From positions 80,910,001 through 80,974,000 of the forward strand of contig OZ260662.1 of assembly GCA_965285935.1 (NCBI GenBank): a stretch of DNA of 64,000 nt. Direction: 5' to 3'. Position 1 is the stretch's first letter, and each line of letters starts with the position of its first letter. This DNA comes from Ophelia neglecta. Taxonomy: Eukaryota. Shown piece after piece: positions 42,001-51,000 of this stretch. The position numbers are program-made.

Positions 42001-45000
42001 CTATTGATTACCTGAAAACAGGAAAGGCCGCTGGGTATGACGCCATACCAGCCGAACTTATAAAAGGTGCCAAGTATCACCTGTGTGAACCACTCAAACA
42101 CTTCTTTAACTATGTGATTGAGTTCAAATCTTTTCCTACATGTCTATCGCTAGGTGTTAGGGTACCTATTCCAAAGCCGGGAGCCAAAAATACTGTAGAT
42201 AATTATAGGCCCATCACCATTTTACCTGTGATAAAGCTGTTTGAGATAATGGTCAGTAATCGCTTTCGTCACATAAATGAAGTGTTTAATCGCACAGACA
42301 TCTATAACGGAGGGTTTCTGAAGGGTTCACAGACCTCCGATAACATGTTTATTTTGTATGGTATAATTCAAAAACAGCTAATCTTAAACAGGCCTCTATA
42401 TGTCTGTTTCGTCGACTTTTCCAAGGCATTTGACCTAGTAAATAGACACATAATGTTTTACAAATTAATGAAGTCAGGGATTCATGGGCGAGTGATTGAC
42501 ACCCTGCGTGACTTATATTCAAAAACCAAATTTAGAATCAAACACAAAGACAGTCTAAGTGCCCTGATTGGAAGTTCACTAGGTGTTAATCAAGGTGGAA
42601 ACTTCAGTACTGACTTGTTCCGTGAATACCTGGCAGATATGAGAGACTATCTGAATGTTGAATTGGGTGTTGTAATTGATGACGACACTATTCTTCTGCA
42701 TCTCCTCTGGGCAGATGATTTAATTCTCATGGCAAATTCATTGGCTGGCTTGCAAGAGCAAGTAAATGGTCTTTTTACTTTTGCATCTAGTAACTTGCTT
42801 ATAGTGAATGAAATAAAGACAAATTTTATGGTTTTTGGGAAGGACCACATTGTCAACCCCGAACTTAGATTTGGCGACAAAATTATAGTCAGAGTATTGC
42901 AATATAAATATTTGGGCAATATGTTTAATGAAGTTAATTTGTTGACAGCCAACGTATTTAAGAACAATTCACATTATCTGACTGAGAAGGCCAGTAAGGC
43001 TATTTACAGCATACGACACAATACCAAGTCCATTGGTAAATTACCCCTGGAGGTGTCTTTCTCTCTATTTGATGCATGTATTAAGCCTATTCTATTGTAC
43101 GGCTGTGAACTTTGGGGTGTCAAAACTCTTCCAGTCATAGAAATCGAGAAAATCCATCTAAAATTCCTGAAAGAGGAGCTTGGAGTTAAAAGTTCCACAT
43201 GCACACCTGCTATCTATGGTGAATGCGGGAGATACCCGATCTCCGTAGATGCTCATGTTAGAGTATACAGCTTTCTCCTCAGGCTGAAATCTCTCCCAGA
43301 GACTAAAATCGCGGGAAAAGTTTTCAATATGCTGGTTCAGCTGGAAGACATGGGCCATAAAACTTGGATTTCTGAAGTGAACTCACTTTTCAAGTCATAT
43401 AACTATGACACAGTATCCCTCCCGCTCAACAAAAAGCAAGCTTGTGTAGATCTCAAGTTGCTTTTGCAAGGAGACTTTGTAGATAAGTGGCAAAAAGACA
43501 TCTTTGATCAAACTAAATTCCCTATTTTAAGATTTTATAATAAATTAAAAAACACATTCGGTCTAGAACAGTATCTTACAATGGCCTCGTTTCCTGAACG
43601 TCTTTATATATCTAAGCTGAGGCTCAGCAGTAATTATTAAAGAGGATGCTCCAATGCAAACCGACAAAACAAGACAACAGCGGGTGGGGGTGTACATGGC
43701 AGGGTACTTTATTAATGCACCAAACTCTGTTACCAGTACATTTGTGAGATTCAGTACCATGCTAAGCCCGGTTAACCAGCAGTACATTCAGTGAGGTAAA
43801 GTACCCTGTGAAACACATTTGTTCAAGCACAAAACTTGCAAACATTTTAACTTACGCCCACATGTGAAGGGCAAATAACTCTTTAATTGTACACAAAGTG
43901 AAGTAACATTCATTATATAATCGACATATAATATTGTGAAATTCCAAATTTAAGAGCATAAAAGTTTAGACGCGGGTGGGTGGGGTGGGAAAAAACAAAA
44001 AACTGCCCTGTAGGCAAGCATGTCACAACTACGGGGATAACCTCTTCACCCCACGGGGGCCGAACCCAACAATGTGTATACTACTACAGGTGTCGCCTCC
44101 ATCTAACCTAATTCCCGCGCCTGCCCTACGTGCGAGGCGCCCTTAATTATTAAAGAGGATGCTCCAATGCAAACCGACAAAACAAGACAACAGCGGGTGG
44201 GGGTGTACATGGCAGGGTACTTTATTAATGCACCAAACTCTGTTACCAGTACATTTGTGAGATTCAGTACCATGCTAAGCCCAAAAAACGTACACCCCCA
44301 AACGCTTGGTCACGCAAGCCCGCCTGGAGCGTATAATAAATGCAACGACTAACCAAGAGTTTAACAGGCTATTTAAGGACCTTAAACTACACCTACATTC
44401 CTACACCATCTAAAATTAAAGGTCATGATGAAATTTAAGATGGACTTCCTTAATAACAGTATTACTTCAAAAGGATGAACTTAATATGGGACGAGACATG
44501 TCCATGCAGTGCTTAAAATTAATGTTGAAAGACAGTCTAAATGTATACAAAACTGTGATGTGACCCTTAGCAAATAGCCTGATATCATGTTACAAACGCG
44601 CTAATACCATGACACCGCATAATAAAACCTCATAATACTGTGGCGCAACTCTTTTCAAGCGCCCTGATACTAGTAATTGCCAAACATACAGTAACCACTT
44701 TGATAATGAAAACCCAATGAAGCATATATGACAACACAGCTAGCCTGATTTCTGTATTGTAGCAGATCTAAAGTTTGAAATTAAGTAATTACAATTTAAC
44801 TGCCTCCTCTCGAGGTATAAATCTTATAAACTACTAAGCTAATTTAACAATAAAGGTTTTTACAAATATGATTTCCCATGAGCTGGGTGGTTTTCAGTTT
44901 GACAGAACTATCCATTTCTAAGTATCTCAAGTATGCATCTGAAGACCAGTCACCCTGTACCTTGATCAACTCCCCACTGACTCCTGCCTTAAATGCGAGA

Positions 45001-48000: not shown

Positions 48001-51000
48001 CTGAGTATCTTCAAAGTTGAAGTGCCAACAAGCCACTGATTTTTTGTTTTGTTTTCCTGTGGTCTTAGTGCTGCTTTTTTTAAAACTGTCTCCATGACCG
48101 ATGTGCTGAGTGGCGCGAAGGGCGATAAGGTTTCGTTTCTCTGTGTCCTGCCACTGAGCGCCGCCGACCTCCAAGCACCTAAGCCAGTCGTAATGATAAT
48201 GCCTTGTTGCCTCCCAATCTGAATGGTGTAGGTTGAATTGGATAAGTTCTTCCAGATGCGCCAGTCTCGCGCCGAATTCTGCGTGGTCAACGTCACCTGA
48301 TAGCAAGATTCTTACATACCCCAGCAAAAACAATTCCCAACTGATTGTGTCCGGGTGAGTATCCGTCTCGGAGACGAAGGCATGAGGCCACAGGGTGGGC
48401 TGACGAATTTGTTGCTGAGATTTAGCGAAGTAACCGCTACGCACAGTGTTGTTGTATGTCCTACCTGTTGGTTGATCCTCCAATTGGCTCGATTCGTCAC
48501 TTGCCGTGAACATGTATTGTCCTTGCCCCTGGGACAGAGCTCCGGCGATGTCGTCTAGCTTTTTGTCGTTCCTCAACGTGAAAATATTGGTACCTTCAGC
48601 AGTTGTTGTCACTTTGGTTGCCGGGCCGGATGTAGCATGGTCGCTGAACTTGGGCGAAACTCCGGCGCTGCCGCCTGGCGATTTCTTTTTTTGCGGTCCT
48701 TTCGGAGAAGATAGGCGATCTATCTCCAAGCGAAGACTCAACTTTTCTGCCTCTAGTTCCTCTATTATGTTCACCAGTTTGTCAGTACTGCGTGTGTTTT
48801 TTGTCTCCCTGACCGTTTGTTTGTCCTTCTTCGGTCGCGCGCCCTTGCCTAATTCACTTGCAACAGTGTCATGCCTTGGCGTTAGCAGGTCCGATTCAGG
48901 TGCCGGTTCTGTGGCGAAAATCTCCTTTAACTTGGCTGCTTGCGCTCGAGTAGCCATGTCAGTGTGACCGCGGGTTCTTTTCACTCTAGATGCTGCTAAT
49001 TCAAGTCCGTGCGATGCGAAAGTGTCAAACAATTTTTAAATAAAACGAAGATAAAACTTGCCCAAAAAAACAAAAAACTGCCCTGTAGGCAAGCATGTCA
49101 CAACTACGGGGATAACCTCTTCACCCCACGGGGGCTGAACCCAACAATGTGTATACTACTACAGGTGTCGCCTCCATCTAACCTAATTCCCGCGCCTGCC
49201 CTACGTGCGAGGCGCCCTTCATGATCTAGAAATCGAGAAAGGCCGACATAGAAGGCCTAGGATACCTGCTTCTAACAGAATTTGTAGATTGTGCGACCTC
49301 TGCGTTGAAGATGAGGTCCACTTTCTATTGGTGTGTCCTTCTCTCTCTGAAGCTAGGGAACCGTTTATAAACAAAATATGTCTAATAAATCCACTTTTTA
49401 CTGACCTAGAGCTCCATGAAAGGGTTTTATTTATATTTACAACTAATAATGATCAGATTTTGAAATGGCTGGGCACTGCTATTAGTAATTTGTTTTTAAG
49501 TCGTTCATCACAGTTGTCAATTTGAAACACAGGCGTTTCATTATTGTGCGTTATTTCATTATGCCTCATTTGTATATAATATGTCATTTTGTTCTTTTCA
49601 ATCATTGTAAAGGCTTATCTTTTTATCCATTCTGTATAAATCAGAAATGATTTTAATAAAACGATATACATACATATAACCACAGGTATTTAGCACTGTA
49701 TGCATTTTACCAGATATTGAAACCTATGGAAACCAGGTGACACCTGGTGAGGAGAAATAGTGGAACAGCTGAGCTATATTTTCCTTCAATTTAAACCTAC
49801 AAAAGAAGCTAGGAAAAAAACCAGGCCTGTTCACCTAGCTGTGCACAGGCTTCAGATCAATGTAGGTATTTGCTTTTGAGAGGATACTGAATGCCAATTA
49901 CCTGATGGCTTGGAATTGCAAACAAATGTGTTGTGAAGAAAGAAAGTGCCTGCATGAATGTTTTCCATATATCTTCACCATGTGTTGCCTGTTTAGAGTA
50001 GGTTTTTATGTCTGGGATAACACAGTGCTAAAGGTAGGTTTTTGGTCAGCTACAGTTGGTATCGGTCAGTTTCAGCATTTTAGTATGCTTGAGGGGGACA
50101 AGCTGTGCTGAATTATTAAGCATTACATATTTACCAAATAAAATCCATCGAGGATAGTGGAATCATCTTCTCCTTCTTCCTCAAATGTTACAGGTGGAAT
50201 GATATTGGTGCCTTCCTTTTCAGCTCGCTTGCGTTCCTCTCTTATTCGATCAAAGGTGCGAGGTTTGGAGCAGAGCACAGCTTTAAATCGCCGCCTCTGC
50301 TCTGCCCTGTGTGCAGTTATCCATGCTCCTCCACCTGATACAGATCCACTTATTATGTAGAGTATTATATTATAATGCTTATATATTACAAGGTTTAAAA
50401 TTAACGAGTTAAAATACAGATAATTTTGTGCACATAATCAGCAGCACGTAATTATGTGTCAGTTATAAAATGATGTCCACGCAGACTTTTCTTTACCCTC
50501 TGCAAGTCAAATAAATATAGGCCTACACATGCATAGTGATGGTATACAACACATGCAAACGCATGTACAAGTGGTACAAGTCATACAAACGATAGATATT
50601 GCTTCATATATTGCCCCAACATAAGACTACATTGATATATAGAATCATAAACGAAAGACAGTGCATTCTGATTTCATACCGTCTTCAAATTGTTTTAATA
50701 AACCTCTCACGGGAAAGCAATTAGACGTGAATCCACCAGAACCATCATCGAATTTGATCCCGGTGGCCTCCATTTTGAAGCTTTCCTAGGAAACCAAAAC
50801 AACACGGAGATAGCCGAATATTTTATCCTTATAAAGAAATACTTAATTTTATAATAATGTTAGAAATATTAAATAATTTATTCTGATAGCTTCAAAATTA
50901 CTAGAATTGTTACTTAAATCTACAATTTCGAAATAAAGCGTTTTTTTTCGGAATTGCCCGATTTTATGGCCTTGAACTTGTTTAGATCAACTTCCGTTTG

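What the first reader, a model, noticed from the sequence alone, without database searches (positions are those of the whole stretch)
43632..49219. Complete, apparently transposition-competent Ngaro-type YR retrotransposon
Seen: three uninterrupted ORFs with catalytic motifs, B repeats identical over 139 bp, and A repeats differing at 1 of 155 bp. Known: split direct repeats plus no methyltransferase distinguish Ngaro from DIRS1-like (inverted repeats) elements. These elements are thought to integrate a circular cDNA via the YR. Inference: a very recent insertion of a possibly undescribed family, lying sense to XRRA1 and carrying poly(A) signals.
Basis: partly seen in the sequence, partly recalled or inferred. 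Interest (0 to 1): 0.7.

Follow-up and report, generated by a model that had tools for sequence, protein, structure and literature searches.

The report
Intact Ngaro retrotransposon in XRRA1 intron
A full-length, recently inserted copy of a known kind of jumping gene (a Ngaro-type retrotransposon that integrates with a tyrosine recombinase) sits inside an intron of an XRRA1-like gene; it is a clean textbook example rather than a new kind of element.

Summary
On the minus strand, 43631-49218 (one base ambiguous at each end) is a 5,588-bp element with the order A1 - ORF1 - ORF2 - ORF3 - B1 A2 - 220-nt spacer - B2. B1 equals B2 at 139 of 139 bases. A1 and A2 differ at 1 of about 154. All three ORFs are open and full-length against their nearest relatives. 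ORF2 keeps the RT and RNase H catalytic residues. ORF3 keeps the R-K-H-R-W-Y set of a tyrosine recombinase. There is no methyltransferase, no hydrolase and no inverted repeats.

The element split a LINE ORF2 precisely. In 89 of 96 LINE relatives the two pieces abut with only the split codon between them, so there is no target-site duplication. It lies sense to an XRRA1-like gene, in a roughly 10.4-kb intron. The best-matching species is the ribbon worm Lineus longissimus. The only two AATAAA signals lie in B1 and B2.

Verdict: a young, coding-intact Ngaro-like element, a new member of a known kind. Competence and family novelty could not be tested. The nearest protein is 73% identical. Repbase, the host genome and two sequence collections were out of reach.

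The parts
43631..49218 (-). Whole Ngaro-like element, 5,588 bp. A single T (plus strand) is shared by target and element, so 43632-49219 is equally valid.
   Evidence: Junction reads. Repeats. The LINE pieces abut.
49065..49218 (-). A1, the 5' terminal repeat, about 154 nt
   Evidence: 1 mismatch to A2 in the first 150 positions. GC of the A repeat is 0.539, measured on the A2 copy.
47863..49032 (-). ORF1, 389 aa as listed (first ATG at 48957). It is Gag-like by position. It has a conserved helical domain (about residues 200-310) and a C-terminal Cys/His cluster.
   Evidence: 181 relatives at E<=1e-3; C335, C348, H361, C363, C366, H375, C381 nearly invariant; W294 invariant. Model. No Pfam family.
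45916..47817 (-). ORF2, 633 aa, reverse transcriptase plus RNase H. It is in the same frame as ORF1, separated from it by one TGA followed by C.
   Evidence: RVT_1 E 4.5e-6; RT_RNaseH E 1.3e-3; both below Pfam's cut-off.. (invariant D257, D323, D324, D485, E519, D544). (gapless 558-aa match at 73%). (PDB profile hits to RT/RNase H of Ty3 and a caulimovirus-type polyprotein)..
47564..47817 (-). Tandem duplication of 135 nt (45 codons) at the N-terminus of ORF2. Both copies are in frame and each starts with an ATG.
   Evidence: 98 nt at 83%, spacing 135. (134 nt at 77.6%)..
44844..45926 (-). ORF3, 360 aa, tyrosine recombinase. It overlaps the ORF2 end by 11 nt in another frame.
   Evidence: Phage_integrase E 3.7e-4, below cut-off. 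(PHROGs phrog_1 integrase E 1.2e-5). (Atlas look-alikes, 15-29% of members with PF00589). (33% identity to L001 ORF3, E 2e-63). (39% to P0027). (R182, K220, H301, R304, W327, Y332, Y335 conserved in 3 of 3).
44283..44843 (-). 561-nt non-coding stretch between the ORF3 stop and B1, where relatives carry a hydrolase ORF
   Evidence: no ORF of 100 aa or more. (no hydrolase remnant by tblastn at E<=10). (no other match in the window at E below 0.01).
44144..44282 (-). B1, 139 nt, with AATAAA at 44226-44221
43990..44143 (-). A2, about 154 nt, joined directly to B1. The B1|A2 join reproduces the two element ends put together.
43770..43989 (-). 220-nt unique spacer between A2 and B2, GC 0.368
   Evidence: no other match in the window
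43631..43769 (-). B2, the 3' terminal repeat, 139 nt, identical to B1, with AATAAA at 43713-43708
40755..49525 (+). Neighbour: LINE ORF2 (endonuclease plus RT plus Cys/His tail), antisense to the host gene. It is broken once, by the Ngaro insertion. Its two pieces have 958 and 101 open codons.
50117..50335 (-). XRRA1-like exon match upstream of the insertion (residues 33-108 of P0121)
   Evidence: 47% identity, E 5e-17
39520..39663 (-). XRRA1-like exon match downstream of the insertion (residues 103-150 of P0121)
   Evidence: 81% identity, E 5e-22. An AG read by eye at 39665-39664.

Best explanation
This is one full-length genomic copy of an autonomous Ngaro-like retrotransposon (order DIRS, tyrosine-recombinase retrotransposons). 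It inserted recently into a young LINE copy that lies in an intron of an XRRA1-like gene. The host is a spiralian animal, most likely a ribbon worm.

Shown:
- the anatomy A1-ORF1-ORF2-ORF3-B1A2-spacer-B2;
- three open, full-length ORFs with conserved catalytic residues;
- poly(A) signals only in B;
- an internal B1|A2 join that equals the two termini put together;
- a precise insertion with no target-site duplication and one shared base.

Inferred, from the published model for split-repeat elements (recalled, and as summarised in passages of PMC6681497 and PMC7192593):
- RNA starts in A1 and ends in B2, downstream of AATAAA.
- ORF1 binds nucleic acid through its Cys/His cluster.
- ORF2 makes cDNA, and the internal B1-A2 copy supplies the terminal sequence that the transcript lacks, giving a closed B|A junction.
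- The ORF3 recombinase exchanges strands between that junction and the target.

ORF2 may be made as an ORF1-ORF2 read-through product of the in-frame TGA. This is a hypothesis. Whether this copy can still move is not known.
For: Architecture.

Domains. One search gave 16 PDB sequences at E<=1e-3, all reverse transcriptases or RT-containing polyproteins. Searches support the recombinase.

Catalytic residues.

Full length against relatives: ORF2 matches P0001 without gaps over 558 aa. ORF3 residues 8-351 align to L001 ORF3 residues 5-342 of 355. ORF1 residues 61-384 align to P0242 residues 26-348 of 351.

Ngaro hallmarks: no inverted repeats of 40 nt or more and no methyltransferase hit. A relative with 38-40% identity in ORF2 (L001) has the same ORF order plus a GDSL/SGNH hydrolase ORF after the recombinase (Pfam E 1.8e-12). 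Passages of PMC9210276 and PMC7192593 give that hydrolase as an extra of some Ngaro elements.

Insertion: the LINE pieces were compared apart with 120 relatives. 120 were hit by the left piece and 96 by both. In 89 of those 96 exactly one residue (the split codon) lies between the two alignments; in 6 there are two and in 1 there are three.

Youth: 1 difference in 293 compared repeat positions. The split LINE is still open in both pieces.
Against: - The recombinase assignment rests on weak profile matches. The Pfam hit is below the gathering score. Two PDB sequence searches gave nothing meaningful. NCBIfam gave nothing for the window protein. The ORF3 structure model was unusable (mean pLDDT 36.9), so no fold search was run on it.
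- The ORF1 model matched nothing in the PDB or in viral predicted structures (0 hits at E<=1e-3), so 'Gag-like' is by position only.
- No tree with labelled Ngaro, PAT or DIRS references could be built.
- The 220-nt spacer between A2 and B2 is not in the published A1-[ORFs]-B1A2B2 diagrams that I saw quoted.
- Only one copy is in view, with no transcript, polymorphism or copy-number data.
- The relative L001 shows no repeats in its 5.6-kb contig, so the repeat layout has no comparator here.
Confidence: 0.85

Rival explanations
1. The right-hand A2-spacer-B2 part is not native. On this reading the locus holds a full element followed by a second, internally deleted partner (A, 220 nt, B). The pair would have arisen by recombination, or by a second integration into the first element's own junction.
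For: The 220-nt spacer is absent from the published A1-[ORFs]-B1A2B2 scheme as quoted. A passage of PMC7192593 notes that DIRS-1 copies often sit inside other DIRS-1 copies. The spacer's GC (0.368) is unlike that of A (0.539) and B (0.432).
Against: The order B1-A2-B2 is exactly the defining Ngaro/PAT layout. The spacer matches no internal part of the element nor anything else in the window, so it is not a recognisable deletion remnant. The B1|A2 join carries the same single-base join that the two outer ends predict. The repeats are as alike as expected for one event.
Confidence: 0.07
2. The element is PAT-like rather than Ngaro-like. PAT-like is another split-direct-repeat group of tyrosine-recombinase retrotransposons.
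For: PAT-like and VIPER-like elements share the A1...B1A2B2 repeat layout (passages).
Against: A passage of PMC7192593 says DIRS and PAT elements also encode a methylase. None is found here, and only 33 residues follow the RNase H part of ORF2. The relative L001 carries the hydrolase ORF reported for some Ngaro elements.
Confidence: 0.04
3. The repeat layout is an assembly artefact, for example mis-joined or duplicated repeat copies.
For: Repeats of 139-154 nt can mislead assemblers. Only this one assembly window was seen.
Against: Both outer flanks belong to one LINE ORF and abut to the codon. There are no N runs in the window. The ORFs are continuous and match relatives end to end.
Confidence: 0.02

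Closest known systems
   Same: Split direct repeats A1-[ORFs]-B1A2B2. ORF order is ORF1, RT/RNase H, tyrosine recombinase. No methyltransferase. No target-site duplication seen.
   Different: The host is a spiralian rather than a vertebrate. There is a 220-nt spacer between A2 and B2. Identity to Ngaro1_DR was not measured.
DIRS-53_XT, a Ngaro-like family of Xenopus tropicalis (passages of PMC9210276)
   Same: Same repeat scheme with identical pairs (A 236 bp, B 152 bp, both 100% there; A about 154 bp, B 139 bp here). Same three core ORFs.
   Different: The Xenopus families have a fourth ORF with an SGNH hydrolase, and all their ORFs overlap. Here there is no hydrolase or remnant of one. ORF1 and ORF2 do not overlap and share a frame across one stop.
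L001, an unnamed Ngaro-like element on a 5,608-nt contig labelled as a Sedimenticola MAG
   Same: Same ORF order. ORF2 is 38-40% identical. ORF3 is 33% identical. The ORF1 core is 27% identical. It has the same in-frame TGA followed by C between ORF1 and ORF2.
   Different: It carries a GDSL hydrolase ORF4. No repeats are present in the contig.
Ngaro elements of Cafeteria burkhardae (passages of PMC8547959)
   Same: About 6 kb, with the A1-[ORFs]-B1A2B2 layout. They are GC-richer than their surroundings and nested inside other mobile elements.
   Different: The host is a protist. Their insertion preference is for virophage-like elements. Sequences were not compared here.
DIRS-1 and DIRS-like elements
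   Same: RT/RNase H plus a tyrosine recombinase. An internal copy of the joined termini. In the published view, integration leaves a short shared motif at both ends (passage of PMC7192593).
   Different: DIRS-like elements have inverted terminal repeats, an internal complementary region and usually a methyltransferase. None of these is present here. The shared motif here is one base, not three.

Membership tests
Ngaro-like (order DIRS) | Split direct repeats A1-[ORFs]-B1A2B2, with A1 equal to A2 and B1 equal to B2 | tested here: met
   B is 139/139 identical and A has 1 mismatch in about 154. The order is as defined. One variation is a 220-nt spacer between A2 and B2.
Ngaro-like (order DIRS) | [quoted passage not shown] | tested here: met
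   Pfam Phage_integrase E 3.7e-4, below cut-off. PHROGs integrase E 1.2e-5. The R-K-H-R-W-Y set is conserved in 3 of 3. No rve/DDE hit. PDB sequence searches were negative.
Ngaro-like (order DIRS) | RT/RNase H of the LTR-retroelement type | tested here: met
   best PDB hits are 8r0s_A (E 5.7e-11) and Ty3 RT 4ol8_A (E 7.6e-9).
Ngaro-like (order DIRS) | No methyltransferase domain | tested here: met
   the only domains in ORF2 are RVT_1 and RT_RNaseH. ORF2 ends 33 residues after the last RNase H motif.
Ngaro-like (order DIRS) | RT/RNase H falls in the monophyletic Ngaro-like clade | not testable with these tools
   No labelled Repbase references could be fetched. Indirect support comes from the relative L001, which has the SGNH/GDSL hydrolase ORF after the recombinase, a reported Ngaro extra.
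Ngaro-like (order DIRS) | Optional hydrolase ORF after the recombinase (some members only) | tested here: not met
   no tblastn match to the L001 hydrolase inside the non-coding stretch at E<=10. This feature is not required for membership.
PAT-like | Split direct repeats plus a methylase (per the passage), and phylogenetic closeness to DIRS-like | tested here: not met
   The repeats are met. The methylase is absent. Phylogeny was not tested.
DIRS-like | Inverted terminal repeats plus an internal complementary region | tested here: not met
   0 inverted pairs of 40 nt or more in 42500-50500.
LTR retrotransposon (Gypsy, BEL, Copia) | Identical flanking LTRs, protease and DDE integrase, and a 4-6 bp target-site duplication | tested here: not met
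   The repeats are split rather than flanking. There are no protease or integrase hits. There is no duplication at the site.

The most novel reading that the evidence does not exclude
This copy belongs to a currently active Ngaro lineage of ribbon worms, with three traits that I found in none of the open papers searched.
1. Pol is made by read-through of an in-frame TGA-C stop between ORF1 and ORF2. A relative only 38-40% identical in ORF2 has the same arrangement.
2. Integration happens by strand exchange at a single shared base, which leaves the target otherwise untouched.
3. The repeat layout has a 220-nt spacer, so that the closed replication form would carry two B|A units, much like a permuted two-LTR circle.
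Probability: 0.2. Interest if true: 0.45.

Novelty: new member of a known kind. Interest (0 to 1): 0.25.

Why it matters
Tyrosine-recombinase retrotransposons are the least understood retrotransposon order, and their replication model is still largely theoretical. This copy has intact ORFs and near-identical repeats, and its insertion site is resolved to the base because it split a conserved LINE codon. It therefore gives a clean natural record of what one integration event does to the target: no duplication, no loss, one shared base.

For the host, a sense-oriented element with two poly(A) signals in an intron of an XRRA1-like gene could truncate host transcripts. None of this changes what is known about the class. 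It adds a well-resolved example, probably the first written up from a ribbon-worm-like genome in the library searched.

Tried and rejected
- Genome-contig scan with the ORF2 alignment: 33 pattern matches, none a relative. The second scan, with P0113, gave only its own contig, L001.
- L001 has no direct or inverted repeats and no head-to-tail overlap longer than 9 nt, so it could not serve as a comparator for the repeat layout.
- PDB sequence searches with ORF3 alone and with a 2-sequence profile gave only chance-level hits.
- NCBIfam gave nothing for the three window proteins.
- The ORF3 structure model from a 2-row alignment had mean pLDDT 36.9. I judged it unusable, so the last fold search was not spent on it.
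- ORF1 model (pLDDT 72.5): 0 matches at E<=1e-3 in the PDB and in viral predicted structures. A capsid-like fold is therefore not shown.
- Pfam on 52 members of the ORF1 family: no shared family, only 4 single chance-level hits.
- Atlas for ORF1 residues 170-389: unnamed eukaryote clusters and one 10% zf-CCCH lead.
- No hydrolase remnant in the element.
- RNA folding of the 120 nt from the ORF1 stop onwards: z +0.73 here and -1.02 in L001, so there is no sign of a read-through structure.
- No fused ORF1-ORF2 protein among the 120 ORF2 hits or the 150 ORF1 hits fetched.
- Rfam at gathering score, tRNA scan and Tandem Repeats Finder: 0 hits each.
- Exact look-up of ORF2, ORF3 and two claudin-like ORFs: none is in the protein collection.
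- Paper search was badly aimed and gave nothing on Ngaro.
- Paper one search (Ngaro plus readthrough) listed 2 papers. Neither title nor abstract start concerns translation, and I did not open them.

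
Full report
OBSERVATION. The finding is real and sits at the stated place. One search lists three uninterrupted minus-strand ORFs. ORF1 is 49032..47863 (389 aa as listed; first ATG at 48957). ORF2 is 47817..45916 (633 aa). ORF3 is 45926..44844 (360 aa). One search finds two direct-repeat families. B has 139 nt at 100% (43631-43769 and 44144-44282). A has 161 nt at 98% (43990-44150 and 49065-49225). It finds no inverted repeat of 40 nt or more. Counting outward from the junctions, A has 1 mismatch in its first 150 positions and loses identity after about position 151-154, so A is about 154 nt. 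B has 0 mismatches in 139. The single A1/A2 difference is a CpG in one copy against CpA in the other. In element orientation the layout is A1 (49218-49065), ORF1, ORF2, ORF3, 561 nt non-coding, B1 (44282-44144), A2 (44143-43990), a 220-nt unique spacer (43989-43770) and B2 (43769-43631). The window has no N and holds no second copy or fragment of the element. In 2-kb steps the element is GC-richer (0.40-0.45 for 44001-50000) than the three steps on either side (0.34-0.39).

BOUNDARIES AND INSERTION SITE. The element lies inside a plus-strand LINE ORF2, which Pfam identifies by RVT_1 (E 1.4e-16) and a weak endonuclease match. The left piece (40755-43630) has 958 open codons and ends two bases into a codon. 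The right piece (49220-49522) has 101 open codons and starts on a codon's first base. One T (plus strand) is present at both element ends and at the internal A2|B1 join. It is the only base shared by target and element. I compared the two LINE pieces apart, never joined, with the 120 best LINE relatives (161 proteins at E<=1e-3 among 6,035 candidates; best identity 44-45%). All 120 were hit by the left piece and 96 by both. In 89 of those 96 exactly one residue of the relative lies between the two alignments, which is the split codon. In 6 there are two and in 1 there are three. The insertion therefore neither duplicated nor deleted target sequence, and the element is 5,588 bp (43631-49218, or equally 43632-49219). 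This is what reciprocal site-specific recombination predicts. It is not what a DDE integrase or a LINE endonuclease leaves.

CODING CAPACITY. No gene of the element is broken. I count 0 stops, 0 frameshifts and 0 insertions or deletions against the nearest relatives.

ORF2. It matches Pfam RVT_1 (E 4.5e-6) and RT_RNaseH (E 1.3e-3), both below the curated cut-offs. A profile of ORF2 plus 33 relatives hits 16 PDB sequences at E<=1e-3. All are reverse transcriptases or RT-containing polyproteins. The best are 8r0s_A 'Enzymatic polyprotein' (5.7e-11) and Ty3 RT (7.6e-9). In that 34-sequence alignment the RT aspartates (D257, D323, D324 of YLDD) and the RNase H residues D485, E519 and D544 are invariant.

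ORF3. It matches Pfam Phage_integrase weakly (E 3.7e-4, below cut-off) and the PHROGs integrase family phrog_1 (E 1.2e-5). Atlas look-alikes are eukaryotic clusters in which 15-29% of members carry PF00589. Residues R182, K220, H301, R304, W327 and Y332/Y335 are conserved in all 3 recombinases I could compare: the window, L001 and the C-terminal part of P0027. The reading of these as the catalytic set is from recalled knowledge of the family.

ORF1. It has no Pfam family, but it has 181 relatives at E<=1e-3 among 1.84 billion representatives (29 at 1e-10, 2 at 1e-30). Conservation is concentrated in residues about 178-385. W294 is invariant, and C335, C348, H361, C363, C366, H375 and C381 are nearly invariant in 52 sequences. 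The model (mean pLDDT 72.5; above 90 for about residues 210-310 and 340-380) shows a helical domain followed by a Cys/His region. It matches nothing at E<=1e-3 in the PDB or in viral predicted structures. 'Gag-like' is thus by position and by a zinc-knuckle-like cluster only.

RELATIVES AND CLASS. ORF2 found 794 proteins at E<=1e-3 among the 8,000 candidates scored. The best, P0001 (an unnamed record), is 73% identical without gaps over 558 residues. All the others are 48% or below. Named hits are from amphioxus (Branchiostoma lanceolatum and B. belcheri) and a hemichordate (Glandiceps talaboti), plus two records labelled as bacterial MAGs. One of those, fetched as L001, is a 5,608-nt contig with the same ORF order. 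Its ORF2 is 38-40% identical, its ORF3 33% (E 2e-63) and its ORF1 core 27%. It also has a fourth ORF with a GDSL/SGNH hydrolase domain (E 1.8e-12).

Passages of PMC9210276, PMC6681497, PMC8547959 and PMC7192593 define the groups. Ngaro-like elements have split direct repeats A1-[ORFs]-B1A2B2 and no methyltransferase, and some have a hydrolase after the recombinase. The same passages say that PAT-like and VIPER-like elements also have split repeats, and that DIRS and PAT encode a methylase. Here the repeats are met, the methylase is absent, and a relative carries the Ngaro-type hydrolase. The window element itself has no hydrolase or remnant of one. I could not build a tree with labelled references, so clade membership is inferred rather than tested.

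HOST GENE AND HOST. The minus-strand ORF 37069-37686 has a single hit, among 3,570 longer candidates, at E<=1e-3. It is P0121, 'X-ray radiation resistance-associated protein 1-like' of Lineus longissimus (34% identity, E 3.8e-6). A tblastn of P0121 against the window gives 12 separate, collinear minus-strand matches covering residues 1-695 of 800, at 27-81% identity. Residues 33-108 lie at 50335-50117 and residues 103-150 at 39663-39520. The LINE and the nested Ngaro therefore lie in one intron of about 10.4 kb. A candidate GT at 50126-50125 and an AG at 39665-39664 were read by eye. The Ngaro is sense to the gene and the LINE is antisense. The gene model was examined exon by exon only. The joined coding sequence was not built or searched, so a full-length comparison remains open. 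Exon identities up to 81% to a ribbon worm suggest a nemertean or close spiralian host, though not that species itself. This is inference. Exact look-ups of four window proteins found none in the collection. Nothing handled here was taken for human.

HOW IT MOST LIKELY WORKS. The anatomy above is shown. So is the fact that AATAAA occurs only twice on the element strand, at the same position in B1 (44226) and in B2 (43713), 57 nt into the 139-nt repeat. The internal B1|A2 join is the sequence that the two termini would form if closed. The insertion is precise.

The rest is inferred, from the split-repeat model of Goodwin and Poulter. I did not read that paper; I recall it, and it is summarised. 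In the model, transcription starts within A1 and ends within B2. The transcript then lacks the outer parts of both terminal repeats. The internal B1-A2 copy supplies them during reverse transcription. A closed form with a B|A junction results. The recombinase exchanges strands between that junction and the target, here at a single shared base.

A passage of PMC7192593 describes the analogous idea for DIRS elements, with a species-specific trinucleotide at the circle junction and at both ends. The same paper reports that DIRS-1 cDNA is mostly linear and single-stranded, so the circular form remains a model even there.

ORF1 and ORF2 share one frame and are separated by a single TGA followed by C, then 15 sense codons before the ORF2 ATG. 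L001 has the same TGA-C and the same shared frame. TGA-C is a leaky stop context in eukaryotes (recalled), so read-through to an ORF1-ORF2 product is plausible. Two of two is weak evidence, however: chance is about 1 in 9 for the frame alone. No unusual RNA structure follows the stop. No fused form occurs among the 270 fetched proteins. ORF3 starts 11 nt before the ORF2 stop, in another frame, and how it is translated is unknown.

AGE AND ACTIVITY. The model implies that the repeat pairs are identical at insertion (passage). One difference in 293 compared positions is 0.34%. Under assumed, not measured, rates of 1e-9 to 1e-8 per site per year, that is roughly 0.2-2 million years. The split LINE is itself still open in both pieces, so the insertion post-dates a young LINE. 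The 135-nt tandem duplication at the ORF2 N-terminus (copies 78-83% alike) is far older than the insertion, stays in frame and so was carried through transposition. It is a family trait, not damage. P0001 shows a shorter repeat of a related motif at the same place. All this fits a recently active family. It does not show that this copy can still move.

WHAT IS UNUSUAL. (1) The 220-nt spacer between A2 and B2 matches nothing else in the element or the window. If native, the closed form would hold two B|A units separated by the coding part and the spacer. (2) The in-frame TGA-C. (3) The single-base overlap at integration. (4) The lack of any recognisable fold for the conserved ORF1 domain.

NOVELTY AND LIMITS. 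Ngaro elements are known from protists, fungi and many animals, including annelids (passages of PMC8556966). In the library searched, only 1 paper holds both 'Ngaro' and 'Nemertea', and it does not link them. That paper shows that Repbase holds nemertean entries, so a deposited family cannot be excluded. Not checked: Repbase; the host genome (copy number, polymorphism); the closed collections viral contigs and metagenome contigs; transcripts. The Ngaro tables of PMC8547959 and the supplementary tables of PMC9210276 may bear on spacers between A2 and B2 and on ORF frames. I rate this a new member of a known kind and of modest interest.

Noticed in passing
L001:1-5608; also proteins P0110, P0113, P0220: A eukaryote-type Ngaro-like element (four ORFs, including a GDSL hydrolase) makes up a whole contig labelled as a Sedimenticola MAG. 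Ngaro and LINE proteins also carry Thiodiazotropha MAG labels. This is most likely host-animal DNA binned with symbiont genomes.
   Followed up: partly
window 47863-47865 and L001 1708-1711: ORF1 and ORF2 share a reading frame across a single TGA followed by C, in both the window element and its 38-40% identical relative. No RNA structure signal follows the stop, and no fused proteins occur among 270 fetched.
   Followed up: partly
window 47564-47817 (minus strand): A 45-codon in-frame tandem duplication lies at the ORF2 N-terminus, with copies 78-83% alike and each opening with the same Met-Gly start. The 73%-identical relative P0001 has a short triple repeat of a related motif at the same place.
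   Followed up: partly
window 4249-4872 (+) and 24758-25306 (+): Two single-exon ORFs of 207 and 182 aa match the PMP-22/EMP/claudin family (Claudin_2 E 6.2e-7 and 5.1e-13). Neither exact sequence is in the protein collection.
   Followed up: partly
window 40755-43630 and 49220-49525 (+): The LINE that was split keeps 958 plus 101 open codons. Endonuclease-plus-RT relatives are 1,195-1,510 aa, so this copy is probably 5'-truncated but otherwise young. Its clade was not determined.
   Followed up: partly
window 51405-51491 and 53659-53745: A pair of 87-nt stretches, 80% alike, lie in inverted orientation about 2.2 kb apart, upstream of the XRRA1-like gene. They may be short interspersed repeat copies.
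   Followed up: no
window 54164-54604 (+): An open frame rich in Arg/Ser dipeptides and His/Lys runs, with no Pfam hit at E<=0.01. It may be an exon of an RS-domain protein or low-complexity noise.
   Followed up: no
window 63356-63733 (+): An open frame whose translation looks like part of a LINE endonuclease (motifs recalled), with no Pfam hit at E<=0.01. It may be a second LINE fragment at the window edge.
   Followed up: no
window 33223-33400 (minus strand): The low-coordinate end of a 246-codon open frame reads as a Lys/Glu-rich coding-like stretch starting with Met. It lies just past the last XRRA1-like match (33957). It may be a further exon or the next gene.
   Followed up: no
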